From a virus: DNA of 64,000 nucleotides. The notes under the pieces were generated by a model, which was not told where the DNA came from, ran no database searches, and worked only from the letters and a program-made list of their open reading frames with translations. The position numbers and the translations under genes were made by a program. Position 1 is the first letter of the stretch; every line of letters starts with the position of its first letter. Of this stretch, positions 904-55,786 are shown in pieces. The stretch covers positions 32,001 to 96,000 of IMG/VR virus record IMGVR_UViG_3300045988_091501. One strand, 5' to 3'.

Positions 904-918
904 TAGAGTAAATAAATT

Positions 919-947
919 AAGGGAGCTTTATTGCTCCCTTGTACATA
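919..947 (+). promoter_or_regulatory. hairpin + GTACATA element
   Basis: AAGGGAGC-tttatt-GCTCCCTT followed directly by GTACATA (941-947). Confidence 0.45.
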
Positions 948-981
948 TTAAATGAAGATAATTAAGGAGATTTTTATATAA

Positions 982-1695: not shown

Positions 1696-1701
1696 ATAGT
1701 A

Positions 1702-5039: not shown

Positions 5040-6113
5040 ATGTCAACTCGCTTTGTTTTAGCCTCTGTAGGTACGGTTCAATTTTTTGACCAATCTAGCG
5101 GAGACTTAATTGTAACAAGTAAGACATTAGTAGATAGTGGTATTAACTTTTCTGTAACAGCAGAAGATATTCGTGGCGGTATGGCAAACGCTCTTTTAAG
5201 CCAGTATTTCCATGACTCCGCAATGGGATTAACTCTTACAGACGCACTCTTCTCATTAGAGTATATGGCTTTAAATGTCGGAGGTACAATTCAAACTGGT
5301 GCAGATGTTCTTACATTAGAACAAGTTACCACAACCGAAGCAAATAAAATTACAGTCAAAGAAACACCTCAAAAGTTTGGTAATTTTGGTGTAATTGGAT
5401 GGTATTCTTTGCCCTCAGAAGATAATTGGACTAAGATTACTTTTGATGCAGATACAAAAACTGCAAATGCACCTGACTTACCTCAAGGAACAACCGTTTG
5501 TGTAAAGTATACTAAGACAGATACAAGCGCCGAACAATTTGTTGTAAGCTCTGCATTTATTCCTGCGCAAGTATATGGTGTACTTACTTTGCCTTTGTTT
5601 AAGTTTGGAACAGAAGCAAAACAATTTTCTAATAGTTCCAAAGTTGGTGAGGTTCAAGTAGTAATCCCCAACTTTATCTTTAGTGGAGCTATGGATTTGT
5701 CTTTAACCGCAAGTGGATCAACAACTACTCCGTTAAGCGGTAATGCTCTTGCAACATTTACAGGACTTGAGGGTTGTGATTCTAATGAGGGCTACTATGC
5801 TTATGTTAAGCAAATTACTTATAACAAAGATGAATTTGCTGATGTAAAGGCTATTGTTGTAGCCGATGCTAATTTGGAATTGAAGGCTAAGGAAACACAA
5901 ACTTTACAAGTATATGCTATTTATAGTGGTATTAAAGCCCCCAAACTCATTGACAATTCAAAATTAACCTTCACCAGTAGCAATGATACTTATGCTTCTG
6001 TTGATGCGAAAGGTGTGGTTACCGCTAATGCAGAAGGTCATGCCGATATTGAAATCGTGGTAAAAAATCGAAATACCTTGATGACTGCCGCAGTTGTAGA
6101 TGTTCAAGCATAA
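5040..6113 (+). CDS. major tail (tube) protein with C-terminal Ig-like (Big_2-type) domain
   Basis: TAGGAGG SD. 357 aa. C-terminal Big_2-like string (ETQTLQVYAIY...LTFTSSNDTYASVDAKGVVTANAEGHADIEIVV). Two hairpins follow it, and the second is a terminator. Confidence 0.65.
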   Translation: MSTRFVLASVGTVQFFDQSSGDLIVTSKTLVDSGINFSVTAEDIRGGMANALLSQYFHDSAMGLTLTDALFSLEYMALNVGGTIQTGADVLTLEQVTTTEANKITVKETPQKFGNFGVIGWYSLPSEDNWTKITFDADTKTANAPDLPQGTTVCVKYTKTDTSAEQFVVSSAFIPAQVYGVLTLPLFKFGTEAKQFSNSSKVGEVQVVIPNFIFSGAMDLSLTASGSTTTPLSGNALATFTGLEGCDSNEGYYAYVKQITYNKDEFADVKAIVVADANLELKAKETQTLQVYAIYSGIKAPKLIDNSKLTFTSSNDTYASVDAKGVVTANAEGHADIEIVVKNRNTLMTAAVVDVQA

Positions 6114-6159: not shown

Positions 6160-6192
6160 AAAGACTTGGTTATAAAGCCAAGTCTTTATTTT
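6160..6192 (+). terminator. intrinsic terminator after the tail tube gene
   Basis: AAAGACTTGG-loop-CCAAGTCTTT followed by ATTTT. A second hairpin, AAGGAGAG...CTCTCCTT, precedes it at 6129-6153. Confidence 0.65.
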
Positions 6193-6213: not shown

Positions 6214-6735
6214 ATGTATAATAATTATATGCCTAATAATTTTGGCATGAATAACAATCCTAATCCTATGAACATGATGAACATGGGACAATTAAGTACA
6301 TATCAACAACCTCAACCACAAAACCAACAGCAACAAAATAGTGGCAATCCTTTTATAATGGTGTCAAATATGAAAGAAGCAAAAGAAAAAATTCTTCCAT
6401 ATGGTAGTACAGTTTGGATGCGAGATAGTAGTGACCCATATCTGTATGTCAAGGGAATATCTTTAACGGGTGACCCCTCATTTCATGTATTAAAGGTTGA
6501 AGATGTGACAGACCAAATGTTAAACAATAATGGTCAAACTCAAAACAATAATCAATTTGTTCAAATCCAAGATTTTAACTTATTAAATCAAAAGGTTGAA
6601 CAGTTGCAGAATAGTGTGAACTATTACAGTGATATTTTAAATAAGGCAATGACTCCGACTCAACAAGTAGTTGAAGAACCTAAAAAGGTTGGTAGACCTC
6701 CAAAAACTGAGAAAGTTGGTGAGGTAAATGGCTAA
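6214..6735 (+). CDS. Q/N-rich low-complexity protein
   Basis: 173 aa. The first ~45 aa are almost only N, Q, P and M (MYNNYMPNNFGMNNNPNPMNMMNMGQLSTYQQPQPQNQQQQN). A second N/Q tract sits mid-protein. The C-terminal tail is basic. Confidence 0.65.
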   Translation: MYNNYMPNNFGMNNNPNPMNMMNMGQLSTYQQPQPQNQQQQNSGNPFIMVSNMKEAKEKILPYGSTVWMRDSSDPYLYVKGISLTGDPSFHVLKVEDVTDQMLNNNGQTQNNNQFVQIQDFNLLNQKVEQLQNSVNYYSDILNKAMTPTQQVVEEPKKVGRPPKTEKVGEVNG

Positions 6736-6958
6736 TTTTTGGGATTCTATAGGTGGTGCAAAACCACAATCACAAGGTAACAATTTTAATTTACAAGGAT
6801 TTTTGAAATTTGCTCAAGAAATGAAGGGCAAAGACCCTAATGTGGTATTACAACAAATGATACAAAATGGTCAAGTAACACAAGACCAAGTAAATAATGT
6901 AAAGCAACAAGCACAAGGAATAGAACAAATGTTGAAAACATTAGGAGTTCGATTATAA
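6728..6958 (+). CDS. small Q-rich protein
   Basis: 76 aa. The ATG overlaps the upstream stop and follows a GGTGAGG SD. Glutamine-rich. Confidence 0.6.
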   Translation: MANFWDSIGGAKPQSQGNNFNLQGFLKFAQEMKGKDPNVVLQQMIQNGQVTQDQVNNVKQQAQGIEQMLKTLGVRL

Positions 6959-7221
6959 AATAGAAAGGTGGCAAAGAAACATTAGTTACATTTCCAAGTA
7001 ACTGATAAAATGAAATGAAAAGATTATATGTAGTTTACAACGCTACATTAGGTATGCTTAAAGGAGGTGTATCTAGTGTTAATTTGTAAATATAGATTAT
7101 ATACAATCTCTAGTGCATCTCTTTTAGATATATAATATATCTATATAATGGGTGCGCAACATTATGTATGGTGTATTAACAACTAATAAACTATATTTTA
7201 TAATGTAAAGGAGATTATAAC

Positions 7222-7896
7222 ATGGCAATGGATGGAAACGGATTAAGCGTAGCAGATGCAATGGCTTTAGCAAATGGAAGAGATGGTGACGGTCTATTCG
7301 GAGGCGGCACAAGTGGTGGTATTCTAGCTCTTATTATCATCTTCGTACTTTTGTTCGGTACGGGAAGTGGTTTTGGATTCGGTGGTAATGGTGCAGTAGC
7401 AACTCAAGCAGATATTCAAAGAGGCTTTGACACACGAACAATCGTTTCTAAACTGGACGGAATTACTAACGGAATTTGTGATGCAAGTTATGCTAATGCT
7501 AATCTTATTAACAATGTAAGGTTTGATACTATGCAAGGCTTTAACAGTGTAAATCAAGGTATTGCTAATTTAGGTTATGAGCAACAAAATTGTTGCTGTA
7601 CCACTAACCGCAATATCGACAGCTTAAAGTATGAAAATGCACAAAACACTTGTGCAATCGTAAACGCTATTCATGCTGATGGCGAAGCAACAAGAGCTTT
7701 AATGCAAGCTAACACTGTTCAAGAACTTAGAGATAAGCTACAAGAACGTGATAACACAATTTCTAACTTTATGCAAAGTCAAGGGCTTTTAACTGCACTT
7801 GGCAGATACGTAACAAATCCTCCCTGTTATCAAGGTTATAACGGATATGGTTATGGATATGGTTGCGGATGTAACACTGGTGTAACCGTAGCATAA
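7222..7896 (+). CDS. Gly-rich membrane protein with CCC cluster and Gly-Tyr-Cys tail
   Basis: AAAGGAG SD. 224 aa. One hydrophobic segment (ILALIIIFVLLFG) is flanked by G-rich runs. It has an internal QQNCCCTTN cluster and ends YQGYNGYGYGYGCGCNTG. Confidence 0.7.
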   Translation: MAMDGNGLSVADAMALANGRDGDGLFGGGTSGGILALIIIFVLLFGTGSGFGFGGNGAVATQADIQRGFDTRTIVSKLDGITNGICDASYANANLINNVRFDTMQGFNSVNQGIANLGYEQQNCCCTTNRNIDSLKYENAQNTCAIVNAIHADGEATRALMQANTVQELRDKLQERDNTISNFMQSQGLLTALGRYVTNPPCYQGYNGYGYGYGCGCNTGVTVA

Positions 7897-7956
7897 TAAA
7901 CAGACATTCAATAAGGGTGTCTGAAACATGACACCCTTTAAAGAAGGGAGAATATC

Positions 7957-8373
7957 ATGTTAGAAGTTGGAAATACAAGTGCAACAGCTTTGACGGCTAA
8001 CGATAAAATTCCATTTACAACAGTGTTCTTTAATACTAACAACAGGACTTCTTTTGACTCTGCAAACAACGCATTAGTCATTAAAAGGCGTGGAATTTAT
8101 AAGGCTGGCGGTAGTTTTGTTTTTACAGCTACTAATGCAGGGAATGTATCAATTTCCATGTATGTAAATGGGGCTTCTGAACCTACTGCTGTATCAACTT
8201 TTACTGCTATAGCTGGTAGCACATATACTTTTACCATTCCATCAAAATATATTAAAGCAATCCCATCTGTAAGTGGAAGTACAATTCCTATCACTTTCGT
8301 AGTGAGTGCTGATGGTACTTTAGATAGTGCTAACGCTTATGTGTATTACAATGAAACTGTAAATGAGCAATAA
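7957..8373 (+). CDS. BclA C-terminal / C1q-TNF-like jelly-roll domain protein (candidate)
   Basis: 138 aa. The pattern IPFTTVFFNTNN...ALVIKRRGIYKAGGSFVFTATNAGNVSISMYVNG...STYTFTIPS...ITFVVSADGTL resembles the beta-sandwich C-terminal domain of Bacillus/Clostridium exosporium BclA-like proteins. Confidence 0.45.
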   Translation: MLEVGNTSATALTANDKIPFTTVFFNTNNRTSFDSANNALVIKRRGIYKAGGSFVFTATNAGNVSISMYVNGASEPTAVSTFTAIAGSTYTFTIPSKYIKAIPSVSGSTIPITFVVSADGTLDSANAYVYYNETVNEQ

Positions 8374-8569
8374 TAGACAATGGGAAGCTCTTGACGCTTT
8401 AAGTGTCATTAGCTTCCTTATTGGTTGGTTCAACTTCTTTGAGAATGTTGACCAAACAACTATGCAAGATGCTATACAAAATGCAGTAAGTGATATACAT
8501 GAGCATTTGAAAGAGCAAGACAAAAAGATGGATGCTATAATAGAAATGTTAGGTGGTGAAAGTCAGTGA
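8363..8569 (+). CDS. small hypothetical protein with one hydrophobic segment
   Basis: 68 aa. The ATG overlaps the end of the upstream gene. LSVISFLIGWFNFF segment. Weak SD. Confidence 0.5.
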   Translation: MSNNRQWEALDALSVISFLIGWFNFFENVDQTTMQDAIQNAVSDIHEHLKEQDKKMDAIIEMLGGESQ

Positions 8570-9021
8570 AAGATAGAGAAATAATTGAAACATATATGAA
8601 GTCTTTGAAAGAAGAACTTTGTATGTATTCCGAAAATCTGTCTGAGAAGACTTTACCATATATTGATGAATTAAAGCATCGGTATGATAAATGGGAAAAG
8701 GACTTATGCAAACTTGACGGTACATGGGTCGAGGGAAAGAAGCATAAAGAGGACAGAGAACGACAAGATATAGAACAGACAGAAATAGATGAAAAATTGT
8801 ATGATGCAGTAGATGAATTTGCTGATTACAAGAAATACAAAGAAGAGTTCATAAGCACTGGTAGTAGCTCTGCCAAAGATATGAGCAAGCAAGAACTTGG
8901 TCATTTTCTTATGAATTTGAAAGATATGTTCAAGGAATTGAATGAGCATAGTAAAGACGATATTGAAGAACGTTCTATGGTGAAAACTGCCATTAAGGAA
9001 ATTTATCAACTATTCAGTTGA
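8566..9021 (+). CDS. hypothetical acidic/charged protein
   Basis: GTG start overlaps the upstream TGA (GTGA). 151 aa. An intrinsic terminator follows at 9034-9061. Confidence 0.6.
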   Translation: MKDREIIETYMKSLKEELCMYSENLSEKTLPYIDELKHRYDKWEKDLCKLDGTWVEGKKHKEDRERQDIEQTEIDEKLYDAVDEFADYKKYKEEFISTGSSSAKDMSKQELGHFLMNLKDMFKELNEHSKDDIEERSMVKTAIKEIYQLFS

Positions 9022-9033
9022 TAATATCGTCAC

Positions 9034-9061
9034 AAAGGAGCAACTTTCATTGCTCCTTTTT
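9034..9061 (+). terminator. intrinsic terminator
   Basis: AAAGGAGCA-actttcat-TGCTCCTTT followed by a T run. Confidence 0.65.
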
Positions 9062-9114
9062 ACATATATAAGGGGTGAGGTAATACTTGCCCCTACTAAG
9101 GAGTGAGAATAAAT

Positions 9115-9489
9115 ATGTGTCAACATATGTATTATAAAGATGAAACAGAATATTTTCCAAGGCTGTATTGTAACATTGACGATAAGATATGTATATATGC
9201 TAAACAGTGCTTAAAGGAAAACAAATTCGTACCAAATGGAGATTTATGGAAGGAATGTTACAAGATGATTGAAGATAAAATTAAAGAAATCCCACAAGGC
9301 TCTTATTATGTGCAATCATATAGACCGAATAGAAGTGGTAAATTATTCTTATATGTTGTAATCAATGACCATGTTGAAAAAATACCAACAGAATTAACAT
9401 CTATTGACCAAGATTATATATATCTTAAAGAAGGACTTGACCGATATGAAGTTTCTCTTACGCCTTTTAGGGAAACTAGAAAGAAATAG
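9115..9489 (+). CDS. Cys-rich protein upstream of the MazF-like toxin (candidate non-canonical antitoxin)
   Basis: ATG 9115 follows an AAGGAGTG SD (the track start at 9103 is GTG). 124 aa with four N-terminal Cys (CQH...C...C...C). Its stop lies 1 nt before the toxin ATG. No RHH, AbrB or MazE-like motif recognised. Confidence 0.6.
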   Translation: MCQHMYYKDETEYFPRLYCNIDDKICIYAKQCLKENKFVPNGDLWKECYKMIEDKIKEIPQGSYYVQSYRPNRSGKLFLYVVINDHVEKIPTELTSIDQDYIYLKEGLDRYEVSLTPFRETRKK

Positions 9490-9490
9490 A

Positions 9491-9853
9491 ATGAAGAGGA
9501 AAGCAATAAAACAAGGCGAGGTTTGGATGTGCAATTTACCTAAAGGCGAAGATTCAGAGCAAATGGGTGTACGACCATGTTTAGTAATGAGCTTGGACAT
9601 TAGAAATGAAACAAGTTCAAATGTGTTTGTATTCCCCATAACCCACGCCAAGAAAAAAGACCAACCTTGCCATTATATATTATACAAAGAACATTATCCA
9701 TTCTTTACATATAAAGAAAACACTGTGTTATGTGAAGAGGGTAGAAGTATAAGCAAGAATAGATTAGATAGGTGTATAGGTGTTATCTTTGCAAAGGACT
9801 TAGTTGAAATATTGAAATGCAAAGAATTTGTATTTGTTGAAAAAAATGATTGA
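9491..9853 (+). CDS. mazF: MazF/PemK/EndoA-family endoribonuclease toxin
   Basis: From ATG 9491 the protein reads KQGEVWMCNLPKGEDSEQMGVRPCLVMS...VFVFPITH...NTVLCEEGRSISKNRLDRCIG. This parallels B. subtilis EndoA ([27 protein letters not shown]...AAIT...DSVILLEQIRTIDKQRL). Confidence 0.85.
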   Translation: MKRKAIKQGEVWMCNLPKGEDSEQMGVRPCLVMSLDIRNETSSNVFVFPITHAKKKDQPCHYILYKEHYPFFTYKENTVLCEEGRSISKNRLDRCIGVIFAKDLVEILKCKEFVFVEKND

Positions 9854-9878
9854 CAGCCTTCTTTCTTTGTAGTATAAT
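9850..9878 (+). promoter_or_regulatory. sigma-A-type promoter TTGACA-17-TATAAT inside the late operon
   Basis: TTGACA at 9850-9855, a 17-nt spacer, TATAAT at 9873-9878. About 30 nt upstream of the 9909 gene. Confidence 0.65.
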
Positions 9879-9904
9879 AAGACCATATTAAAGAAAGGAG
9901 GCTG
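9854..9904 (+). promoter_or_regulatory. 15-bp hairpin pairing the promoter spacer with the downstream Shine-Dalgarno
   Basis: CAGCCTTCTTTCTTT (9854-9868) pairs with AAAGAAAGGAGGCTG (9890-9904), with one G-U pair. The loop holds the -10 element. The 3' arm contains the SD of the 9909 gene. Confidence 0.55.
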
Positions 9905-9908
9905 TAGA

Positions 9909-10247
9909 ATGATTAAGAAATTCATTGTGTCTTTATCTTCTATCATTGGTATATCTTGCATTATATACTATACAAGTAAATATTATATTGAAAGACAACT
10001 ATGCTTTACAGATAATATGCTCATTCCTTGGACAATTATATCCTCTTGTATCATCGTTGCCTTAATAGTTGGTTTATTTTCTTTATGGAAAGTAGATAAG
10101 ATAGAAAGACAGAATAATGAAATGAAATCAATATTGCTAAAGTTGACAGAAGATTCAGAAGAATATTATGATTCATTATGTCACCACTTGCAAAATAGTA
10201 GAGAATTAAGTTTAGATATTTTTGACAAAATGCAAGAAAGGAATTAG
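9909..10247 (+). CDS. small membrane protein (2 predicted TM segments)
   Basis: AAAGGAGG SD and its own promoter at 9850-9878. 112 aa with two hydrophobic segments and a charged C-terminal tail. Confidence 0.7.
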   Translation: MIKKFIVSLSSIIGISCIIYYTSKYYIERQLCFTDNMLIPWTIISSCIIVALIVGLFSLWKVDKIERQNNEMKSILLKLTEDSEEYYDSLCHHLQNSRELSLDIFDKMQERN

Positions 10248-10249
10248 TG

Positions 10250-10570
10250 ATGAATAATCAGCAAAAATGGTTTAGCCGTAACAACTTTAGTGACAACTAT
10301 GATTATGCTGAAAAGGTGCTAAAGAGGTTTAATCTTGACAAGTATCATTTTGCCTATGATGGTGGTGAACTGGCTTTATTGATTGAAAGTGGATTAAAGA
10401 AATATAAGGTGGTAACTGATGAAGTAGAATGTTTGATGAAGATTTATAGGTGTGATGTTCATGCAAATTTTGGCAAGTACACCAAAGAAAACTTGGTACT
10501 CAAAAAGACGTTTAATGACGATTGTATATGGAATAGTATCAAGTGGATTGCAAAGGATTCAAAATTGTAA
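10250..10570 (+). CDS. hypothetical protein, partner of the 9909 membrane protein
   Basis: ATG 10250 lies immediately after the upstream TAG (the track start at 10247 is GTG). 106 aa. No motif recognised. Confidence 0.65.
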   Translation: MNNQQKWFSRNNFSDNYDYAEKVLKRFNLDKYHFAYDGGELALLIESGLKKYKVVTDEVECLMKIYRCDVHANFGKYTKENLVLKKTFNDDCIWNSIKWIAKDSKL

Positions 10571-10589
10571 TCGTACATAGTTTTTCCTC

Positions 10590-10618
10590 TTGACTTTTCC
10601 TCCTTTATATGGTATAAT
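10590..10618 (+). promoter_or_regulatory. sigma-A-type promoter TTGACT-17-TGgTATAAT
   Basis: TTGACT at 10590-10595, a 17-nt spacer, extended -10 TGGTATAAT at 10610-10618. Upstream of the 10649/agrB-like pair. Confidence 0.65.
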
Positions 10619-10640
10619 GTATATATCAGATAAAGGAGGA
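10598..10640 (+). promoter_or_regulatory. 11-bp hairpin pairing the promoter spacer with the downstream Shine-Dalgarno
   Basis: TCCTCCTTTAT (10598-10608) is the perfect complement of ATAAAGGAGGA (10630-10640). The loop holds TGGTATAAT. A T-rich tract runs up to ATG 10649. Confidence 0.55.
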
Positions 10641-10648
10641 TATTTATT

Positions 10649-11110
10649 ATGTTAAGAGAAATGATAATTGATTTTATGTTGTTTAGTTTTGTAGAAGGAC
10701 TTTTATATGCAATGTTCTTCAACAGAGTGTGTAAATGTAAAAAGTTTAATATATTTGAAATCATTGTAATGAGTATAGGAAATTGTGTGGTATTTTGCTT
10801 ATTTCCACCAATTATCTATCAGATATTTATGATGGGCTGGATGGCATTTTGTTTACATCTAAAGAATGGAACAGACCATACAACATTTCAATATGTTAAG
10901 TATAGCTTTTTAGTTATGGTCGGACAGTTGATAACCGAAATGGTATTTGCTATGTTTTATGATTTTGTTTTAAACATTGATTTTTCTAAAAGTTCACCAT
11001 TAACTGTATTTATTATAATGATTCCAATTAGAGCAATACAGTTTATTATTATATATAAGTTAGGAGGATTCAACATGAAGGGTTGGATGGGTGGAGTAGT
11101 TCGTAAGTAA
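10649..11110 (+). CDS. polytopic membrane protein (~5 TM), upstream partner of AgrB-like gene
   Basis: AAAGGAGG SD and its own promoter at 10590-10618. 153 aa, almost entirely hydrophobic. An in-frame AGGAGG-N6-ATG at 11062-11077 could also initiate an 11-aa peptide, MKGWMGGVVRK. Confidence 0.7.
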   Translation: MLREMIIDFMLFSFVEGLLYAMFFNRVCKCKKFNIFEIIVMSIGNCVVFCLFPPIIYQIFMMGWMAFCLHLKNGTDHTTFQYVKYSFLVMVGQLITEMVFAMFYDFVLNIDFSKSSPLTVFIIMIPIRAIQFIIIYKLGGFNMKGWMGGVVRK

Positions 11111-11136
11111 TTACAACTACAACAAAAGGTCTTGTC

Positions 11137-11163
11137 GGCTCTTCCTAAGAACCGAAGTACATA
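11137..11163 (+). promoter_or_regulatory. imperfect hairpin + GTACATA element
   Basis: CGGCTCTTCCTAAGAACCG, then AA, then GTACATA (11157-11163). ATG 11180 lies 23 nt from the G. Confidence 0.4.
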
Positions 11164-11179
11164 AAAAAGGAGTGTTGAT

Positions 11180-11707
11180 ATGTTAGACAAACTACAATTA
11201 TTTTTGAAGTCTAAAATTGGTCAACCTTGGGCTTATTATATAACTTGTGTTGTCTATCTTATATTAACATTCGGTGGACTAATAGGCATAGGTTATATAT
11301 TTGGTGTTTGGTGGCAAATGCTTGTGTTAGGAATTTGTTTAAGTTGTGTTCGCAGTTACACAATGGGATTCCATTGTCACACAAATGGTAAATGTTTTAT
11401 CATTAGTTCAATAATTGGCATAATGTTCTCTATTATATTACAGACTATTCCTATATGGGTAGTCTTTTTATTATGCTTATATTCTTGTGTAGATATTTAC
11501 AAGAGAGCGCCGATAGAGTTAAATACAGAACATGAAGGGAAAGATGAGGACTGGCATTTCAAAAGGGTTGTATTGATTATGACTATTTATATGGCTATTT
11601 CTCTTATAACATATTATTTTGGATTAGAGCAATTATGTAAATGTGTATTATTAAGTCTTGTAATGACAGACTTATTACTATTTAAAAACCATAAAGAATA
11701 TATATAG
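11180..11707 (+). CDS. agrB: AgrB-like accessory gene regulator protein B (peptide-processing membrane protease family)
   Basis: 175 aa polytopic membrane protein. It contains VRSYTMGFHCHTNGKCFIISS, which matches the AgrB core R-x-x-x-G-G/x-H...C...S. The His-to-Cys spacing is 7, as for S. aureus AgrB H77/C84. Confidence 0.6.
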   Translation: MLDKLQLFLKSKIGQPWAYYITCVVYLILTFGGLIGIGYIFGVWWQMLVLGICLSCVRSYTMGFHCHTNGKCFIISSIIGIMFSIILQTIPIWVVFLLCLYSCVDIYKRAPIELNTEHEGKDEDWHFKRVVLIMTIYMAISLITYYFGLEQLCKCVLLSLVMTDLLLFKNHKEYI

Positions 11708-11720
11708 AGGGGATAGATAT

Positions 11721-12173
11721 ATGGAAGAAAATCAAGAATTACACGACCTTAAAGCCAAGGTTAATAAAATAGAATATACAGAAATCAAAGAATTAAAAGA
11801 TGAAATTCAGAAAGTAAAAATTGATCTTAACACAAATAATATTTTAACAAAGCAATGTATTGAAAGTAATGATAAAATGTCAAATACATTAGATACATTA
11901 AAGGACACAATGATTGAAGTGGCTCAAAGTGTTAATGATAGTAATAAAGTAACATTAGAATTGGCTTCAACAGTAAAAGATTTGAATGATAAAGTAAAGA
12001 ATGTTGAAAGCACAATGGATAAGAAATTTAATGAAGTAAATGAACGAATTGAAGTTATTGATGATAAAGGTAAATTTGATTGGATGCTATTTTTAAAGCA
12101 TAACGCAGTTAGTATTTTGCTTGGAATAGGTGCTTTAATTTATGCTTTGTCACAACTTGGAATAAATCTATAA
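11721..12173 (+). CDS. XhlA-like coiled-coil protein with C-terminal membrane anchor
   Basis: 150 aa. A long heptad-like K/E/N/D-rich region is followed by one C-terminal TM (AVSILLGIGALIYALSQLGI). This is the architecture of PBSX XhlA-type lysis-accessory proteins. Confidence 0.45.
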   Translation: MEENQELHDLKAKVNKIEYTEIKELKDEIQKVKIDLNTNNILTKQCIESNDKMSNTLDTLKDTMIEVAQSVNDSNKVTLELASTVKDLNDKVKNVESTMDKKFNEVNERIEVIDDKGKFDWMLFLKHNAVSILLGIGALIYALSQLGINL

Positions 12174-12185
12174 TGGAGGTAATAC

Positions 12186-12365
12186 ATGGTAACAATAGCA
12201 AGGATTGGCGGTCAAGTTGAACAAGCAACCGCAGAATTATATGGTTTATCTATTGATAATAAGCCTATTAGTGATGATATTCCTAATGCTTCTACATTTT
12301 ATGAGATGGACACAAAGATTGCATTTTTATATGATGCAGAAAATAAACAATGGTTAGAACAATAG
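12186..12365 (+). CDS. small hypothetical protein (59 aa, below the track cutoff)
   Basis: I translated ATG 12186 to TAG 12363-12365 by hand: MVTIARIGGQVEQATAELYGLSIDNKPISDDIPNASTFYEMDTKIAFLYDAENKQWLEQ. GGAGG SD. It fills the gap between neighbouring genes. Confidence 0.6.
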   Translation: MVTIARIGGQVEQATAELYGLSIDNKPISDDIPNASTFYEMDTKIAFLYDAENKQWLEQ

Positions 12366-12374
12366 GAGGGTAAT

Positions 12375-13109
12375 ATGGACATAATTGATATTGTTCTCTC
12401 AAAGAAATATACAGATAAATCATTACAAGGTATTACTGGCGCTTTAGATGGTAAGAATTGTACGATTAAATCAGCCACTAAAACCGATGGTGTCACAACT
12501 GTTATATTCGCATGGACAGCAGATGATGGGACAGAAAAGACAACAACCATTCAAGTTAATGATGGAAATAATGATTACGAAGATTTAATTAACAGACCCA
12601 AAATTGAAGGTGTTGACTTAATTGGTAATCTTACATTTGAAAATTTAGGCGTTGCAAGTGCTACTGATTTAGCACAAACAGATGGACATTTACAAGATTT
12701 GGCAGACTTAGTAGGTAACAAGGCTAATCTACCTATGCCAAATGAAACAGTAGTTGGTAACATTAAACATGTTGATACAAAGATTGATGGTCTAATTGAT
12801 GATAATGCAACTGGAATAACTAAAACATTTTCAAGTGATAAGATTGCAAAGACCTTTGCTACACTTGAAGAAGTAAACGAACGTATACCCCAATATGAAA
12901 TCATGCCTATTGCAACGGAATCTTGTGGTGGTCAAGTGGTTCAATTTATTGGAACAAGCACAAGTGACTATACACATGGATATTTTTATGAATGTGTTCA
13001 AAATGATGGAACATATAAATGGACAAACATAAAAATTCAAGAAAACACTATTACACAAGAACAATATCAAAGTATATTAGATAGATTAGTTGCTTTGGAA
13101 AATAAATAA
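12375..13109 (+). CDS. tail-fibre/receptor-binding-like protein
   Basis: GGAGGG SD. 244 aa. Fibre-like strings (INRPKIEGVDLIGNLTFENLGVAS, VVGNIKHVDTKIDGLIDDN) and a C-terminal coiled-coil tail. Confidence 0.5.
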   Translation: MDIIDIVLSKKYTDKSLQGITGALDGKNCTIKSATKTDGVTTVIFAWTADDGTEKTTTIQVNDGNNDYEDLINRPKIEGVDLIGNLTFENLGVASATDLAQTDGHLQDLADLVGNKANLPMPNETVVGNIKHVDTKIDGLIDDNATGITKTFSSDKIAKTFATLEEVNERIPQYEIMPIATESCGGQVVQFIGTSTSDYTHGYFYECVQNDGTYKWTNIKIQENTITQEQYQSILDRLVALENK

Positions 13110-13134
13110 TAAACAGAAAGGAGGCTCATAGAAG

Positions 13135-13308
13135 TTGACAACGGATGATTATTTGTCTAAAATTAGCAAACGGTCTGACAGATTTGGTTCACAATTAAAC
13201 AAACTTATGGATTTTTGTGGAGTAGATTGTTTAGTAGACGTTAGTTATGATATGGCAAAAATGTTTTACGAAAAAATGGTCAGAGAAAATATAGATGATA
13301 GTATTTAA
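13135..13308 (+). CDS. small hypothetical protein (57 aa, TTG start)
   Basis: AAGGAGG at 13118-13124 is followed by TTG 13135. Hand translation: MTTDDYLSKISKRSDRFGSQLNKLMDFCGVDCLVDVSYDMAKMFYEKMVRENIDDSI. An intrinsic terminator follows. Confidence 0.45.
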   Translation: MTTDDYLSKISKRSDRFGSQLNKLMDFCGVDCLVDVSYDMAKMFYEKMVRENIDDSI

Positions 13309-13332
13309 TGTTAGCTTCTATGAAGCTGATTA

Positions 13333-13362
13333 TGGAGAGGTGGAGACATCTCTCCATTTTTT
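13333..13362 (+). terminator. intrinsic terminator closing the accessory island
   Basis: ATGGAGAG-gtggagacat-CTCTCCAT followed by TTTTTT. Confidence 0.7.
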
Positions 13363-13412: not shown

Positions 13413-13778
13413 ATGAAATTAAATAGGAATTACTTAACAAGCACTGAACTTATGGATATTGTAAAGGAATTAGTTCAACATAATAATGTAGTTGAAAGAG
13501 AAATTATCAAGATTGCTATGTTGGTTCAAATATTAACTGATTGTGAGAAAAAGGAAACAGCTAATGACTATTATGATGAATATGTCCAACAAAAAGATAT
13601 AGACTTTGAAATTGATGTATGCAATGCCTATATGGTTGATAAATTAGTAGATAAGGAATTATCCATTGACCATTTATTAAAATCATTTATGGAAAATCTA
13701 AGCAAGCAATTAAATGGATTTGATTTGAATGAAAGTATTGACAAACTTAAAGGTGTGATGAGTAATGACAATAAATAG
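13413..13778 (+). CDS. hypothetical protein in tail-assembly-chaperone position
   Basis: 121 aa, acidic. Preceded by the hairpin-GTACATA element and a GAAAGGGG SD. The assignment rests on position only. Confidence 0.6.
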   Translation: MKLNRNYLTSTELMDIVKELVQHNNVVEREIIKIAMLVQILTDCEKKETANDYYDEYVQQKDIDFEIDVCNAYMVDKLVDKELSIDHLLKSFMENLSKQLNGFDLNESIDKLKGVMSNDNK

Positions 13779-14259
13779 CTTTGCTGGATTGCAAGCACAA
13801 GTAACAATTAAATTAGAACAAGCTATTGATTTAACTATGAAACATTTTGAGCAAGAATTATATAATTGTATTCAAAGTGAAGTATATAGTTATGACCAAG
13901 AGTGGTATATAAGAACAAATGAACTACTTGATAATTGGGAAATTATTACTACAAAAAGTAAAAATTCTGTTGAAAGCGAATTGTCGTTTAGTAAACCAAT
14001 AAGCCATAGCGGAAGTCCATTATTTCAACATGGATTTGAATTTATCAATGGTGGCAATACATTTTTAAGTAATCAATCATTGCTAGAAATAATTGAAGAT
14101 GGGAAAATAGGTGCTATTGCTAATTTCCCACAAATAGGAAGTAGACCGTTTTGGTCGGAATTTTGGAAAATTGTAGATAGAGATTTAAACAAGGTATTTA
14201 TACAAAATTGTCAATCTGTTGGCTTACCGATTCAACAAGGACAATTTAGTTATAGTTAA
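13765..14259 (+). CDS. hypothetical protein in tail-assembly module
   Basis: 164 aa. Its own ATG lies 14 nt inside the upstream ORF, after AAAGGTG. No motif recognised. Confidence 0.6.
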   Translation: MTINSFAGLQAQVTIKLEQAIDLTMKHFEQELYNCIQSEVYSYDQEWYIRTNELLDNWEIITTKSKNSVESELSFSKPISHSGSPLFQHGFEFINGGNTFLSNQSLLEIIEDGKIGAIANFPQIGSRPFWSEFWKIVDRDLNKVFIQNCQSVGLPIQQGQFSYS

Positions 14260-14271
14260 AGGAGAAAAGAT

Positions 14272-14796
14272 ATGATAACTTTAGGGTTAGATATGAGTAG
14301 TAAGAAAAGTGGTTATAGTCTTTTCAATGATAAAGAATTAAAACTATACGGTCTTTGGGAAATACCTGAAGATATTACTGAATGGCGTGATAGAATTGTG
14401 TGGATGGGCAGACAGTTGGATAGTTTTGTAAAGGAACACAAAGTAGACCAAGTGTTTGTAGAAGATGTTCCTTTGTCTATGGCTAATCCACAAACATTGA
14501 AAATTCTATCAGCATTACAAGGAATGATTATATCCGTGTGTATTCTTAATAATCTTAAAGTATCATTTATTGGAGTGTCACAATGGAGAAGTGCTCTAGG
14601 ATTATTTACAGGCACAACAAAAGGCATGACAAGAGCAGAAATGAAGAAATCAAGTATTGAATATGCTAATAAGACATTTGATTTAGATTTGGTATGGAAG
14701 AGTAAGACAAGCAAGTTTAATCAAGATGACTCTAGTGATGCGATAAATGTGGCTTGGTCACAGTTGATTGATAAGAAACAATTTGGTCGGAGGTGA
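14272..14796 (+). CDS. RuvC-like Holliday junction resolvase
   Basis: 174 aa. N-terminal ITLGLDMSSKKSGYSLF (catalytic Asp context), then VFVEDVP (Glu), then a C-terminal DDSSDAINVAW (Asp) pattern. These are typical of RuvC-fold phage resolvases. Confidence 0.7.
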   Translation: MITLGLDMSSKKSGYSLFNDKELKLYGLWEIPEDITEWRDRIVWMGRQLDSFVKEHKVDQVFVEDVPLSMANPQTLKILSALQGMIISVCILNNLKVSFIGVSQWRSALGLFTGTTKGMTRAEMKKSSIEYANKTFDLDLVWKSKTSKFNQDDSSDAINVAWSQLIDKKQFGRR

Positions 14797-14800
14797 TTAG

Positions 14801-27170: not shown

Positions 27171-27271
27171 TTATATATAGTAAAAGGACAGTGGGTTGCA
27201 AACTATTTTCTAATGACCTTATTAGAATTACTTTTACTATATCTATATCTATAAAAGGAAAGGGCTGTACA

Positions 27272-30670: not shown

Positions 30671-30768
30671 TAGAAGATTTAAGAAAGATTATTATAGATA
30701 TGAGAGCAAATGGTTTGTCTTTAAATACATTGATACGAATAGTAAAAGAAATGTATCGTGTAAAGTAG
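30667..30768 (+). CDS. possible 33-aa protein
   Basis: ATGA overlap with the upstream stop. Hand translation: MIEDLRKIIIDMRANGLSLNTLIRIVKEMYRVK. It fills the gap before the holin gene. Weak evidence. Confidence 0.3.
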   Translation: MIEDLRKIIIDMRANGLSLNTLIRIVKEMYRVK

Positions 30769-30783
30769 AAAGGAGTACATATT

Positions 30784-31152: not shown

Positions 31153-31163
31153 GAGATGGTAAT

Positions 31164-55691: not shown

Positions 55692-55786
55692 ATTTATATA
55701 TTTATCTATAATCTTTTGAATGATTCGGCATATAAATACATTTGTACCCATTAAGTAACATTTTGTGTTTCCTTTCTTAAATAAAA

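What the first reader, a model, noticed from the sequence alone, without database searches (positions are those of the whole stretch)
6214..13308. Seven-kb accessory island between the tail tube gene and the chaperone/tape-measure genes
In siphovirus-type late operons the tube gene is normally followed directly by chaperones and the tape measure. Here about 16 ORFs intervene. None of them looks like a standard virion component.

They include Q/N-rich proteins, a Gly/Cys-rich membrane protein, a C1q/BclA-like domain, a MazF-family toxin, two membrane-protein pairs, an AgrB-like protein, an XhlA-like protein and a fibre-like protein.

The island has its own intrinsic terminators (6160, 9034, 13333) and two sigma-A-type promoters (9850, 10590). 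Parts of it could therefore be expressed independently of late transcription, as morons are in a lysogen. This is the most likely place in the window for a host-manipulation or defence function that has not been described.
Basis: partly seen in the sequence, partly recalled or inferred. Interest (0 to 1): 0.7.

Follow-up and report, generated by a model that had tools for sequence, protein, structure and literature searches.

The report
Cargo block between phage tail genes
The 7-kb stretch between the tail-tube and tape-measure genes of this large gut phage is not a strain-variable island but three conserved gene modules, one of which joins a MazF RNA-cutting toxin to an AgrB signal-peptide protease and a hypervariable membrane protein driven by early-type promoters inside the late operon.

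Summary
Sixteen real genes lie between the tube gene (5040-6113) and the chaperone-like/RuvC/tape-measure genes. MazF, AgrB and a BclA/C1q fold are confirmed, as are three terminators and the two promoters. "XhlA-like" is supported by topology only.

Ten close relatives all carry the block. At 84-97% nucleotide identity it is better conserved than the capsid and tape-measure flanks. Its genes are under purifying selection.

The phage belongs to the SPbeta-like structural lineage. SPbeta itself has about 12 genes between tube and tape measure.

The block has three modules:
- **A (6214-9021):** a portable six-gene cassette also found in unrelated Clostridia phages.
- **B (9103-12173):** Cys5 protein-MazF, then a promoter driving a 2-TM protein and a small protein, then a promoter driving a 5-TM protein, AgrB and a tail-anchored protein. 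Gene order and promoter positions persist in phages whose tube proteins are only 43-64% identical.
- **C (12186-13308):** fibre-like genes.

P9850 and P10590 match the phage's early promoter class. The only near-consensus sigma-A sites on the late strand lie inside the block.

The function remains inferred. My preferred reading is an early-expressed, non-essential membrane and RNase module. No AgrD was found. Relatives are virulent, so lysogen expression is unsupported.

The parts
5040..6113 (+). Tail tube / major tail protein (context, upstream flank). YomU-like with a C-terminal Big_2 Ig domain.
6160..6187 (+). Intrinsic terminator after the tube gene.
   Evidence: Found by the scan. Folds at -15.4 kcal/mol, z -5.75. 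Conserved in relatives. HNH endonuclease genes are inserted just before it in L004, L005, L006, L010 and L013.
6214..6735 (+). Module A gene 1: Q/N-rich 173-aa protein.
   Evidence: PHROG 21718. Homologues lead the same cassette in a C. perfringens phage and in Dulem virus 36. Absent in L010.
6728..6958 (+). Module A gene 2: 76-aa Q-rich protein. Its start overlaps the end of gene 1.
   Evidence: PHROG 22984. A gene of equivalent size and position occurs in both foreign cassettes.
6959..7221 (+). Conserved, strongly structured 263-nt leader. It contains the promoter-like site 7176-7204 (TTAACA-17-TATAAT).
   Evidence: 100% identical in 4 relatives and 72% in L015. MFE -65 kcal/mol, z -5.0. Three compensatory pairs. 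No Rfam family.
7222..7896 (+). Module A gene 3: Gly/Cys-rich single-pass membrane protein with a CCC motif and a conserved NTCAIxNAIHxDGEATRAL segment.
   Evidence: PHROG 16490. TM at 33-51. 35-37% identical to cassette homologues in C. perfringens phages and Dulem virus 36.
7957..8373 (+). Module A gene 4: stand-alone BclA-C-terminal / C1q-TNF-fold jelly roll with no collagen stalk.
   Evidence: AF2 pLDDT 91.3. Foldseek 3tyj/1wck E 3e-7, TM 0.68.
8363..8569 (+). Module A gene 5: 68-aa acidic protein.
   Evidence: Homologous to Dulem virus 36 ORF 7199-7432 (E 8e-21) and to the C. perfringens phage ORF (E 4e-7), in the same cassette position.
8566..9021 (+). Module A gene 6: 151-aa highly charged helical protein. 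Two allele classes (83% or 99-100%) occur among relatives.
   Evidence: No family hit.
9034..9059 (+). Intrinsic terminator between modules A and B.
   Evidence: -12.9 kcal/mol, z -5.7. The loop is inverted and the stem kept in L004/L013. Other relatives carry an extra 107-aa gene here.
9115..9489 (+). Module B gene 1: 124-aa protein with five invariant Cys and a beta-rich C-terminal half. Its stop lies 1 nt before the MazF start. Candidate MazF partner or antitoxin (inferred).
   Evidence: C2/C19/C26/C32/C48 are invariant, including in PMBT24 ORF hyp1. No Pfam, PADLOC or NCBIfam hit.
9491..9853 (+). MazF/PemK endoribonuclease toxin homologue.
   Evidence: Pfam PF02452, 65 bits. PHROG 1936. 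The PDB Bacillus MazF/EndoA alignment keeps GVRP and IT. dN/dS 0.01-0.03. Found in the same slot in PMBT24, L015, L020 and L023.
9850..9878 (+). Sigma-A promoter P9850 (TTGACA-17-TATAAT, 12/12) of the early class, for 9909-10570.
   Evidence: Conserved in relatives. An equivalent promoter is present in L015, L020 and L023.
9909..10247 (+). Module B gene 3: two-TM protein with a cytoplasmic coiled-coil tail.
   Evidence: TM prediction. Family alignment. Conserved in L015, L018, L020 and L023.
10250..10570 (+). Module B gene 4: soluble 106-aa protein and the best-conserved member of the block (69% in L015, 64% in L018).
   Evidence: No family hit.
10590..10618 (+). Sigma-A promoter P10590 (TTGACT-17-TATAAT, with the same tatatgg spacer end as several early promoters) of the early class, for 10649 onward.
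   Evidence: The hexamers are kept while the spacer varies in L010/L011. An equivalent promoter lies upstream of the 5-TM gene in L020 and L023.
10649..11110 (+). Module B gene 5: five-helix membrane protein of a new, apparently phage-borne family. Hypervariable in residues 88-142.
   Evidence: 29-86% identity among relatives against 92-97% for AgrB. 73 clusters, all about 150 aa. No Pfam hit. AF2 pLDDT 91 with no PDB analogue. Old alleles, dS 0.4-1.2.
11180..11707 (+). AgrB-family membrane cysteine peptidase.
   Evidence: Pfam PF04647, 71.6 bits. R58/G63/H65/C72 have the same spacing as S. aureus R70/G75/H77/C84. H and C are invariant in the clade (PMC10196373). Disrupted in L010 and L013.
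11721..12173 (+). Module B gene 7: coiled-coil protein with a C-terminal TM anchor, always directly after AgrB. Has the XhlA topology but no XhlA profile match.
   Evidence: Weak similarity to the PMBT24 'macoilin' ORF, which precedes a holin.
12186..12365 (+). Module C: 59-aa beta-type protein that precedes the fibre gene in all relatives.
   Evidence: Homologues in L015 and L020. The slot-equivalent 75-aa gene in L023, which showed no BLAST similarity to 12186, carries Pfam Phage_head_fibr.
12375..13109 (+). Module C: short fibre-like protein.
   Evidence: PHROG 24985 fibre motif. Its N-terminal 130 aa matches the N-terminus of a 595-aa fibre in L020. The fibre in the same slot of L015 matches SPbeta YomR.
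13135..13308 (+). 57-aa protein, linked to the chaperone-like genes in L018.
13332..13357 (+). Intrinsic terminator that closes the block.
   Evidence: Found. -17.5 kcal/mol, z -5.3. Conserved.
13413..19042 (+). Downstream flank (context): two chaperone-like genes, the RuvC-like resolvase 14272-14796 and the tape measure 14801-19042.

Best explanation
**What it is (shown).** The stretch is a composite of three conserved modules. They sit in the tube-to-tape-measure slot of a roughly 100-kb phage of the SPbeta-like structural lineage, where extra cargo in that slot is normal.
- **Module A (6214-9021)** is a portable six-gene cassette. It comprises a Q/N-rich protein, a small Q-rich protein, a Gly/Cys-rich membrane protein, a BclA/C1q-fold protein and two small charged proteins. 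It has its own structured leader with a promoter-like site, and its own terminator. The same cassette, with five of the six slots matched in order (three by sequence), lies elsewhere in unrelated Clostridia phages.
- **Module B (9103-12173)** is a seven-gene unit of fixed order. A Cys5 protein is translationally coupled to MazF. Promoter P9850 then drives a 2-TM protein and a small soluble protein. Promoter P10590 then drives a 5-TM protein, AgrB and a tail-anchored coiled-coil protein.
- **Module C (12186-13308)** encodes fibre-like, probably virion, proteins. It is the counterpart of SPbeta yomS-yomP.

**How it works (inferred).**
- The two internal promoters belong to the phage's early sigma-A class. 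Host RNA polymerase would therefore make the membrane half of module B from the start of infection, independently of late transcription.
- That would place in the infected cell's membrane a catalytically intact AgrB-type cysteine peptidase and a five-helix partner. The partner's predicted outward-facing segment exists as old, recombining alleles.
- I think this pair most likely sets a specificity at the cell surface. The main candidates are exclusion of, or competition with, related phages, or processing of a peptide.
- MazF is the gene under the tightest constraint. I infer that it acts as a sequence-specific RNase that shuts off host and/or early mRNAs. The Cys5 protein encoded just upstream would hold it in check.

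The module is an accessory function and not a virion part. My confidence is about 0.85 for the architecture and expression logic and about 0.3 for the stated function.
For: **Lineage and slot.**
- The window's tube matches YomU and its tape measure matches YomI. Pfam YomU_Tube, YomW and YomX are recorded on the relative L020.
- SPbeta has 12 genes between yomU and yomI, including fibres YomS-P and an integrase.
- PMBT24 has 8 genes there, including MazF and a holin. TR-TP1 has only 3.

**Conservation.** Searches show the block present in 10 of 10 close relatives. dN/dS is 0.01-0.25.

**Module A portability.**

**Module B.**
- Its gene order holds in L015, L018, L020 and L023.
- Thirteen perfect and two 11/12 TTGACA-17-TATAAT promoters with a spacer/RBS inverted repeat lie on the replication arm. 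On the late strand the only sites scoring 11/12 or better fall within 7176-13163. P9850 and P10590 share the early design.
- Equivalent promoters sit at the same junctions in L015, L020 and L023, and one lies upstream of the MazF operon in PMBT24.
- AgrB's catalytic residues are intact (PMC10196373). MazF's are too.
- The 5-TM protein is variable, and its alleles are old. Its AF2 model is confident and has no known analogue.
- AgrB is dispensable.
- The canonical holin-like gene and endolysin lie elsewhere, at 30784-32417.

**Module C.** Fibre homology is shown.
Against: - No function was tested.
- No AgrD-like ORF lies next to AgrB or anywhere in the 64-kb window, so the AgrB substrate is unknown.
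- The 5-TM alleles do not co-vary with the tape-measure or chaperone alleles of the same genome. That gives no positive support for an injection-blocking model.
- The phage's own sense strands show no depletion of UACAU, ACA or any other non-palindromic word. Late and early transcripts do not differ either. MazF would therefore not obviously spare phage mRNA.
- The Cys5 protein has no detectable antitoxin domain.
- MazF itself lacks an early-class promoter in the window.
- Promoter activity is inferred from sequence and conservation, not measured.
Confidence: 0.55

Rival explanations
1. The block would be a strain-variable moron or accessory island, acquired horizontally, whose promoter-bearing parts are expressed from a prophage to manipulate or protect the lysogen.
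For: - The block has its own terminators and promoters.
- Gene content varies at module junctions. HNH genes are inserted after the tube. A 107-aa gene is present or absent at 9021-9103. L010/L011 carry a 2.6-kb insert after MazF with tyrosine-recombinase remnants.
- Module A is a portable cassette.
- AgrB is lost in two relatives.
- SPbeta, the lineage prototype, is temperate and has an integrase gene in this slot.
Against: - The block is present in 10 of 10 close relatives and is better conserved than its flanks.
- Module B keeps its order across deep divergence.
- Selection is purifying.
- GC does not differ from the flanks.
- PMBT24 is reported as virulent (PMC11035940).
- No integrase or repressor was seen in the window.
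- The promoters are of the phage's own early class and not a distinct lysogenic class.
Confidence: 0.1
2. An agr-type peptide communication or quorum-sensing hijack. AgrB would cyclise a peptide precursor, either a phage AgrD encoded outside the window or the host's AgrD. The hypervariable 5-TM protein would be the specificity component (receptor, exporter or decoy). Its alleles would then be pherotypes that let phages sense infected-cell density or distort host signalling.
For: - The only known AgrB activity is AgrD maturation, and the catalytic residues are intact (PMC10196373).
- Expression would be early.
- Old, recombining alleles in a predicted outward-facing segment sit next to a conserved AgrB. 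This recalls the agr hypervariable region.
- There is a precedent for agrB/agrD/agrC in phage phiCDHM1 (PMC3901668).
- The SPbeta group is known for peptide (arbitrium) signalling (titles).
Against: - No AgrD-like ORF lies beside AgrB in any relative or anywhere in the window.
- There is no AgrC/AgrA, no kinase, and no cytoplasmic domain on the 5-TM protein.
- AgrB itself is not variable, unlike in agr specificity groups.
- The 5-TM family is unrelated to AgrB and has no structural match among solved structures.
Confidence: 0.2
3. The block would be mostly structural or morphogenetic. Its proteins would be virion decorations, fibres and assembly factors of an SPbeta-like tail, transcribed with the late operon.
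For: - It sits inside the tail gene cluster on the late strand.
- 12186-13109 is fibre-like, and in SPbeta the same slot holds the XkdV/W/X-like fibres YomR/Q/P.
- The BclA/C1q fold also occurs in phage spike and fibre knobs, such as the phi812 hit.
- Conservation is as strong as for structural genes.
Against: - Five proteins are integral membrane proteins.
- MazF and AgrB are not virion-type proteins.
- The internal promoters are of the early class.
- Module A lies in the early region of C. perfringens phages.
- AgrB is knocked out in two otherwise intact relatives.
Confidence: 0.1
4. MazF and its Cys5 partner would form a toxin-antitoxin-type suicide or counter-defence device. It could kill the cell when a competing phage or a host defence halts phage gene expression, or it could neutralise a host MazF-type abortive-infection system. 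The membrane genes would be unrelated neighbours.
For: - MazF is catalytically intact and under the strongest constraint.
- It is translationally coupled to a conserved upstream gene, as in type II TA operons.
- Acidic C-terminal tails in the L015 and L020 homologues resemble antitoxin tails.
- MazF is widespread and often solitary in large Firmicutes phages.
Against: - No PADLOC or antitoxin profile hits.
- The fixed linkage with the AgrB half across deep divergence argues for one functional unit.
- PMBT24 has MazF without the AgrB half, which fits independence, but there MazF is co-transcribed with a holin.
Confidence: 0.15

Closest known systems
SPbeta (Bacillus phage SPBc2) interval yomU to yomI
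   Same: The structural lineage is the same: tube matches YomU and tape measure matches YomI. A multi-kb set of non-canonical genes lies between tube and tape measure, including fibre-like genes.
   Different: No detectable homologue of the window's AgrB was found in the phage collection that includes SPbeta, and SPbeta was not among the MazF matches. Its cargo is YouA, YomT-N, the integrase YomM, and YomL-J. SPbeta is temperate.
Enterocloster phage PMBT24 and the CB457/CB473 phages, tube-to-tape-measure block
   Same: The flanks are syntenic at 28-39% amino-acid identity. The Cys5 protein, MazF, a tail-anchored coiled-coil protein, the chaperone-like pair and RuvC occupy the same slot. A sigma-A promoter lies upstream of the MazF operon.
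   Different: The block is shorter, at 3.7 kb. It lacks AgrB, the 5-TM protein, the 2-TM protein and its small partner, and module A. It has a holin instead.
phiCDHM1 agr3 locus (C. difficile myovirus; PMC3901668)
   Same: A phage-borne AgrB homologue that is transcribed during infection.
   Different: phiCDHM1 carries agrD and agrC with agrB, recently acquired from its host, in a temperate phage. Here AgrB has no AgrD or AgrC. It belongs to a clade recovered so far only from phage-like contigs (down to 33% identity). It is paired with a novel 5-TM protein and MazF.
Staphylococcal agr hypervariable region (specificity groups)
   Same: A conserved flank lies next to a sharply delimited segment that exists as old, divergent, recombining alleles in a membrane protein adjacent to agrB.
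   Different: In agr the variable segment spans AgrB, AgrD and the AgrC sensor. Here AgrB is 92-97% conserved, and the variable protein has no kinase and no relationship to AgrB.
Type II MazEF (B. subtilis EndoA/EndoAI, S. aureus MazEF) and T4 RegB
   Same: The protein has the PemK/MazF fold family and the catalytic Arg/Thr, with a small gene immediately upstream. From my own knowledge, T4 RegB is a toxin-like endoribonuclease that a virulent phage uses to switch off early mRNAs. It is a functional analogy only.
   Different: The upstream partner is a 124-aa Cys5 protein with no MazE/AbrB/RHH signature. The gene sits in a phage tail operon. No cleavage-motif avoidance was detected.
Lambdoid morons
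   Same: Promoter-and-terminator-bounded units embedded in a late operon, with insertions or deletions at unit boundaries.
   Different: The units are not polymorphic among close relatives. Composition is not atypical. The promoters are the phage's own early class. No lysogeny is evident.
Early membrane superinfection-exclusion proteins (T4 Imm/Sp, lactococcal Sie2009, Ltp). From my own knowledge, an analogy only.
   Same: Small membrane proteins made early, with allele diversity expected from phage-phage arms races.
   Different: There is no sequence or fold relationship. The association with AgrB is unexplained. The alleles do not track tape-measure alleles.

Membership tests
MazF/PemK toxin (PF02452) | Profile match above the curated threshold | tested here: met
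   65.4 bits against a cutoff of 23.1. PHROG 1936 at E 9e-21. PDB MazF/EndoA at E 1e-8.
MazF/PemK toxin (PF02452) | Catalytic Arg and Thr (B. subtilis R25/T48; residue numbers from my own knowledge) | tested here: met
   The alignment pairs GVRPcLV with GVRPvLV and fpIT with aaIT. The same residues are present in PMBT24 MazF.
MazF/PemK toxin (PF02452) | Cognate MazE-type antitoxin encoded immediately upstream | tested here: inconclusive
   The upstream gene 9115-9489 is translationally coupled and co-conserved. It has no antitoxin, Pfam, PADLOC or NCBIfam match.
MazF/PemK toxin (PF02452) | Sequence-specific RNase activity and growth inhibition | not testable with these tools
   Needs expression and cleavage mapping.
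AgrB (PF04647) of an agr quorum-sensing locus | Profile match and polytopic membrane topology | tested here: met
   71.6 bits against a cutoff of 23. Several predicted transmembrane segments (the simple hydropathy scan resolved three).
AgrB (PF04647) of an agr quorum-sensing locus | Catalytic His and Cys, with the Arg/Gly of the R70-G75-H77-C84 motif | tested here: met
   R58-G63-H65-C72 have identical spacing. H65 and C72 are invariant in 15 clade members, though R58 is not. The residues are as given in PMC10196373.
AgrB (PF04647) of an agr quorum-sensing locus | Adjacent agrD pro-peptide gene | tested here: not met
   No ORF of 25 aa or more with AgrD features lies beside AgrB in the window or in 11 relatives. 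None was found in the 64-kb window. The 38-aa ORF in L023 is a tRNA cluster. The rest of the genome was not searched.
AgrB (PF04647) of an agr quorum-sensing locus | AgrC/AgrA two-component partner | tested here: not met
   No kinase was seen in the block, and the ten larger products of the rest of the window that were profiled are replication or lysis proteins. All members of the 5-TM family are about 150 aa with no kinase domain.
BclA C-terminal / C1q-TNF fold | Ten-strand jelly-roll fold | tested here: met
   AF2 pLDDT 91.3. The top Foldseek hits are BclA-CTD at E 3e-7 and TM 0.68, followed by C1QL and TNF ligands.
BclA C-terminal / C1q-TNF fold | N-terminal collagen-like GXX stalk, as in BclA and C1q | tested here: not met
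   The 138-aa protein is the globular domain alone and has no GXX repeats.
XhlA (PF10779) | Profile match | tested here: not met
   No XhlA hit at E<=0.1. Only the coiled coil and the C-terminal transmembrane topology fit.
Moron / strain-variable accessory island | Presence/absence polymorphism among close relatives with conserved flanks | tested here: not met
   The block is aligned in 8-10 of 10 relatives, and the flanks are more variable. Only small indels occur at junctions.
Moron / strain-variable accessory island | Own promoter and terminator | tested here: met
   This rests on sequence and conservation evidence only.
Moron / strain-variable accessory island | Atypical base composition | tested here: not met
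   GC is 0.29-0.36 across both block and flanks.
Moron / strain-variable accessory island | Expression from the prophage | not testable with these tools
   The relative PMBT24 is virulent (PMC11035940). The lifestyle of this phage is unknown.
SPbeta-like structural lineage with cargo between tube and tape measure | Tube homologous to YomU and tape measure to YomI, with extra genes between them | tested here: met
   (E 3e-6 and 6e-33). for the Pfam YomU_Tube, YomW and YomX hits in L020. for the SPbeta gene order.

The most novel reading that the evidence does not exclude
AgrB and the hypervariable five-helix membrane protein, possibly together with the 2-TM protein and its small partner and with MazF as an output, could form a previously undescribed phage-specific peptide-processing and recognition system. 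Its old recombining alleles would act as specificity groups. Virulent SPbeta-like gut phages would use them to tell kin from non-kin infections, or to sense infected-cell density, and to adjust host shut-off or lysis accordingly.
Probability: 0.15. Interest if true: 0.85.

Novelty: new variant of a known kind. Interest (0 to 1): 0.55.

Why it matters
**What the result corrects.** Cargo between tube and tape measure is a stable trait of a whole lineage of large Firmicutes phages, not a strain-level island. This should change how such regions are annotated.

**What it defines.**
- A seven-gene module that links a MazF RNase to an AgrB peptidase. It has a conserved two-promoter architecture embedded in a late operon.
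- A new family of hypervariable five-helix membrane proteins, recovered so far only from phage-like contigs.

**Why it could matter.** If the AgrB/5-TM pair processes or recognises a peptide, it would be a second kind of phage communication or kin-recognition device in the SPbeta group. That group already gave us arbitrium. The allele series offers a ready-made test of specificity.

**Other leads.**
- The six-gene module A cassette is shared with C. perfringens phages and is a separate unexplained unit.
- The early-promoter design, in which the spacer is complementary to the ribosome-binding region, marks a regulon that can be mapped in these uncultured phages.

Tried and rejected
1. Nucleotide search of 24 kb against 50,697 phage records found no match. 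Protein-level searches were needed instead.
2. I tested MazF-motif avoidance as a sign of host shut-off. UACAU, ACA and other known motifs occur at expected frequency on sense strands. They do not differ between late and early transcripts. The depleted words are palindromes, which points to restriction avoidance.
3. I asked whether the 5-TM protein is a divergent AgrB. hhalign gave a probability of 0.9%, so I rejected this.
4. I asked whether the 5-TM protein is an AgrC-like sensor or a known fold. All 73 family clusters are about 150 aa with no fused domains. There is no Pfam hit, and the best PDB Foldseek match has E above 3. BFVD returned only uncharacterised phage proteins.
5. AgrD search:
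   - No small ORFs were found around AgrB in 12 genomes.
   - A pattern scan of the window gave one antisense false positive.
   - The Cys in the loop of 9909-10247 is not conserved.
   - The 38-aa ORF in L023 is really tRNA genes.
6. No defence-system profile (PADLOC) gave a meaningful hit. NCBIfam added only a weak AgrB hit.
7. Rfam found nothing in the block.
8. The 5-TM alleles do not correlate with tape-measure or chaperone alleles.
9. I considered the block as the lysis cassette. A holin-like gene and the endolysin lie at 30784-32417, so the main lysis genes are elsewhere.
10. The AgrB search in 185,579 genomes found one hit, a 3.9-kb contig of an Erysipelotrichaceae MAG carrying the same phage module. 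There is no bacterial home for this AgrB clade.
12. I looked for positive selection in the 5-TM variable segment. dN/dS is 0.3-0.56 with very high dS. This indicates old alleles and recombination, not recent positive selection.

Full report
**1. What is there**

The window is part of a low-GC (about 32%) phage genome.
- Late structural genes lie on the plus strand at 1-32.4 kb. They run from the C-terminal part of the capsid protein to the endolysin.
- A replication arm lies on the minus strand at 32.6-64 kb. It encodes a PolIII-alpha-type polymerase, NrdD, exonuclease V, RecJ and DnaB.
- 5040-6113 is the tube / major tail protein with a C-terminal Big_2 domain.

Sixteen plus-strand ORFs fill 6214-13308. 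After them come two chaperone-like genes, a RuvC-like resolvase (14272-14796) and a 1413-aa tape measure. The region has no compositional anomaly.

**2. Checking the listed features**

Confirmed features:
- **MazF/PemK.** Pfam gives 65 bits. The catalytic Arg and Thr align with those of Bacillus MazF structures. The real start is probably 9491, one base after the stop of the upstream gene.
- **AgrB.** Pfam gives 71.6 bits. The motif R58-G63-H65-C72 has the same spacing as the S. aureus residues R70, G75, H77 and C84 that are required for proteolysis (PMC10196373). H65 and C72 are invariant in 15 members of the phage clade.
- **7957-8373.** It has no sequence match to any family or solved structure. 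Its AlphaFold model (pLDDT 91) matches the BclA C-terminal domain best, then C1q/TNF folds. It is the globular domain alone, with no collagen stalk.
- **12375-13109.** It carries a tail-fibre motif. Its N-terminus matches that of a 595-aa fibre in a relative.
- **Terminators.** All three are good hairpins followed by U-runs, at -15.4, -12.9 and -17.5 kcal/mol.

"XhlA-like" (11721-12173) is not supported by a profile match. Only the coiled coil and C-terminal membrane anchor fit.

**3.

There is no nucleotide match to any deposited phage. Relatives were found at the protein level:
- Enterocloster phages PMBT24, CB457 and CB473 (tube 38% identical)
- Thomasclavelia phage TR-TP1 (27%)
- 12 IMG/VR contigs with tubes 64-97% identical

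In the ten close relatives with usable flanks, almost every block gene is present in the same order at 83-100% amino-acid identity. At the nucleotide level the block aligns in 8-10 of 10 genomes at 84-97% identity.

The flanks are less stable. The capsid/scaffold genes and the chaperone/RuvC/tape-measure genes are replaced by alleles only 26-49% identical in about six genomes.

dN/dS in the block is 0.01-0.25, the same as for head-tail connector genes. MazF is lowest at 0.01-0.03, with dS up to 0.34.

So the block is not a strain-variable island. It is the most stable part of this neighbourhood.

Gene-content changes are limited to module junctions:
- HNH endonuclease genes after the tube terminator
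- a 107-aa gene at 9021-9103
- a 2.6-kb insert after MazF in L010/L011 that carries fibre-like genes and remnants of a tyrosine recombinase

**4. The slot is a lineage trait**

- The window's tube matches SPbeta YomU and its tape measure matches YomI.
- A relative's connector and tube genes carry the Pfam families YomX_C, YomW and YomU_Tube.
- In SPbeta itself, 12 genes (about 7.3 kb) lie between yomU and yomI. They include the XepA/XkdV/XkdW/XkdX-like YomS-P and an integrase, YomM.
- PMBT24 has eight genes there. TR-TP1 has three.

The premise that the tube is "normally followed directly by chaperones" therefore does not hold for this lineage.

**5. Three modules**

*Module A (6214-9021).*
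- The run of a Q/N-rich protein, a roughly 75-aa Q-rich protein, a Gly/Cys-rich single-pass membrane protein, a roughly 120-138-aa beta protein and a 68-aa acidic protein recurs in the same order in two other phages.
- In C. perfringens phage vB_CpeS-17DYC it lies in the early region. In the lemur-gut Dulem virus 36 it lies after the receptor-binding protein.
- It is absent from L020, L023 and PMBT24. It is therefore a portable cassette.
- It is preceded by a 263-nt leader that is 100% conserved in several relatives and strongly structured (z -5.0). The leader contains a TTAACA-17-TATAAT site. Pairings in it would cover the ribosome-binding site only in transcripts that start upstream.

*Module B (9103-12173).*
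- The order Cys5 protein, MazF, 2-TM protein, 106-aa protein, 5-TM protein, AgrB, tail-anchored coiled coil is kept in L015 (tube 64%) and L020 (43%). L018 keeps the last five genes. L023 keeps all but the Cys5 protein, although a GIY-YIG endonuclease, three ORFs and three tRNA genes have been inserted there.
- PMBT24 keeps the Cys5 protein, MazF and the tail-anchored protein, but not the AgrB half. The five Cys are invariant in its homologue.

*Module C (12186-13308).*
- A small beta protein and a fibre-like protein occupy the position that holds longer fibres in L015, L020 and L023 and YomS-P in SPbeta. The L015 fibre matches YomR.
- This module is probably structural.

**6. The promoters**

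Across the whole window, 13 perfect and two 11/12 TTGACA-17-TATAAT sites lie on the minus strand in front of replication-arm genes. They share a design in which the spacer holds the inverted repeat of the downstream ribosome-binding region.

On the 32-kb late strand, the only sites scoring 11/12 or better fall within 7176-13163. P9850 and P10590 have the early design.

Conservation supports them:
- Their hexamers are conserved in relatives even where the spacer changes.
- Equivalent promoters sit before the 2-TM gene (L015, L020, L023) and before the 5-TM gene (L020, L023). The proteins in those phages are only 25-35% identical.
- PMBT24 has one in front of its MazF operon.

This is strong comparative evidence that the membrane half of module B is expressed from early-class, host-RNA-polymerase promoters embedded in the late operon.

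PMBT24 is reported as virulent (PMC11035940). The window shows no integrase or repressor.

**7. The 5-TM protein**

- Among genomes whose AgrB is 92-97% identical, this protein is 29-86% identical. It falls into at least three allele groups.
- Variation is concentrated in residues 88-142. From the AlphaFold model (pLDDT 91) and the positive-inside rule, that is the outer half of helices 4 and 5 and the loop between them (the topology is inferred).
- In that segment dS is 0.4-1.2, against 0.02-0.38 in the rest of the gene. dN/dS is 0.3-0.56. These are old alleles moved by recombination, not recent positive selection.
- The family has 73 clusters at 50% identity, all about 150 aa. It has no Pfam family and no structural analogue in the PDB. 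Only uncharacterised phage relatives appear in BFVD. It is unrelated to AgrB.
- Three of the four distant members whose contigs I fetched lie in phage-like contigs, two of them again next to AgrB and near MazF.

**8. What is missing**

- No AgrD-like ORF lies next to AgrB in any genome or anywhere in the window.
- No AgrC or AgrA was found.
- The AgrB clade is detected only in phage-type contigs. The single "bacterial" hit is a 3.9-kb MAG contig carrying the same module.
- AgrB carries a premature stop in L010. In L013 it has lost its first 75 residues, including the active site. It is therefore dispensable.
- The Cys5 protein has no recognisable antitoxin domain.
- Phage sense strands do not avoid any candidate MazF motif.

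**9. Interpretation**

*Shown.*
- The block has a composite architecture and is conserved.
- It belongs to the SPbeta-like lineage.
- MazF and AgrB keep intact catalytic motifs.
- The internal promoters are of the early class and are positionally conserved.
- The 5-TM protein has an allelic structure.
- AgrB is dispensable.

*Inferred.* Module B is an early-expressed accessory device acting at the membrane and on RNA. My preferred reading is a surface-specificity function for the AgrB/5-TM pair. That could be exclusion of, or competition with, related phages, or peptide processing. MazF would act as a controlled shut-off RNase.

An agr-type communication system is the most interesting alternative. 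It lacks a precursor and a transducer.

The lysogenic-moron reading and the all-structural reading are each contradicted by several tests.

**10. Novelty**

Phage-borne agr genes (phiCDHM1, PMC3901668), phage MazF homologues (PHROG 1936) and cargo in the SPbeta tail region are each known or visible in public records. I did not find the following described:
- the fixed MazF-AgrB module with its two-promoter layout
- the hypervariable 5-TM family
- the portable module A cassette

I rate the finding a new variant of known kinds, of moderate interest.

Noticed in passing
window minus strand: 35030, 35544, 36109, 39009, 41973, 43995, 48034, 49070, 53650, 56009, 56222, 58183, 61128, 61426: About 14 perfect or near-perfect TTGACA-17-TATAAT promoters lie in front of replication-arm genes. 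They share a design in which the spacer contains a CTCCTTT-type stretch. That stretch is the inverted repeat of the AAAGGAG ribosome-binding region 10-25 nt downstream of the -10 box, making a palindrome centred on the -10. It may be an operator or a regulatory device.
   Followed up: partly
window 6959-7221: A 263-nt intergenic leader is 100% identical in several relatives and folds far better than shuffles (-65 kcal/mol, z -5.0). One hairpin encloses an AAAGGAGG box. A long-range pairing (AATCTCT with AGGAGATT) would mask the ribosome-binding site of 7222-7896 only in transcripts that start upstream of the internal promoter-like site 7176. No Rfam family matches.
   Followed up: partly
whole window: There is strong avoidance of palindromic restriction-type words on both strands. 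Examples (observed/expected): GATC 33/142, GGCC 2/34, CATG 113/198, GCWGC 1/36, GGWCC 0/27, GATATC 0/20, GTTAAC 0/15, GAATTC 2/18 and ATGCAT 0/11.
   Followed up: no
window 14272-14796: A RuvC-like Holliday-junction resolvase gene sits between the chaperone-like genes and the tape measure. It is conserved in that position in PMBT24/CB457P1 and L023. This is an odd place for a recombination enzyme.
   Followed up: no
window 1-1700 and 13413-19042 compared with L004-L014: Among otherwise near-identical phages, the capsid/scaffold genes and the chaperone/RuvC/tape-measure genes exist as two or more allele classes. These are 26-49% identical in one class against 95-100% in the other. This indicates wholesale module swapping of core structural genes.
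   Followed up: partly
window 27191-27850 and 29554-30198; L004 11169-12581; L005/L010 374-aa ORF after the tube gene: HNH/NUMOD-type homing endonuclease genes are scattered in the tail-fibre region. In relatives they lie directly after the tube gene. In L009-L012 the tube match spans 1467 nt instead of 1071. This suggests an intervening sequence in the tube gene itself.
   Followed up: no
L010 15998-18557 (and L011): A 2.6-kb insert between MazF and the 2-TM gene carries two fibre-like ORFs and two fragments of a tyrosine recombinase. In TR-TP1, MazF lies next to an integrase. SPbeta has the integrase YomM in the tube-to-tape-measure slot. This may be a trace of an older mobile or lysogeny-related context for MazF.
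   Followed up: no
L023 5700-5963: Three tRNA genes (Cys-GCA, Ser-GCT, Ser-TGA) are inserted between the 5-TM gene and AgrB in a distant relative. The window's own tRNAs (Leu-TAA, Ile-TAT) are at 55621-55875 on the minus strand.
   Followed up: yes
L010 about 20160; L013 17534-17548: AgrB is inactivated twice independently among ten close relatives. L010 has an in-frame TAA at codon 87. L013 has a deletion that removes the intergenic region and the first 75 codons, including the catalytic His and Cys.
   Followed up: yes
window 30200-31152: The probable lysis cassette lies at the end of the late arm. It comprises a membrane protein with several transmembrane segments (30200-30670), a holin-like 122-aa protein (30784-31152) with no PHROG match, and the endolysin 31164-32417.
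   Followed up: partly
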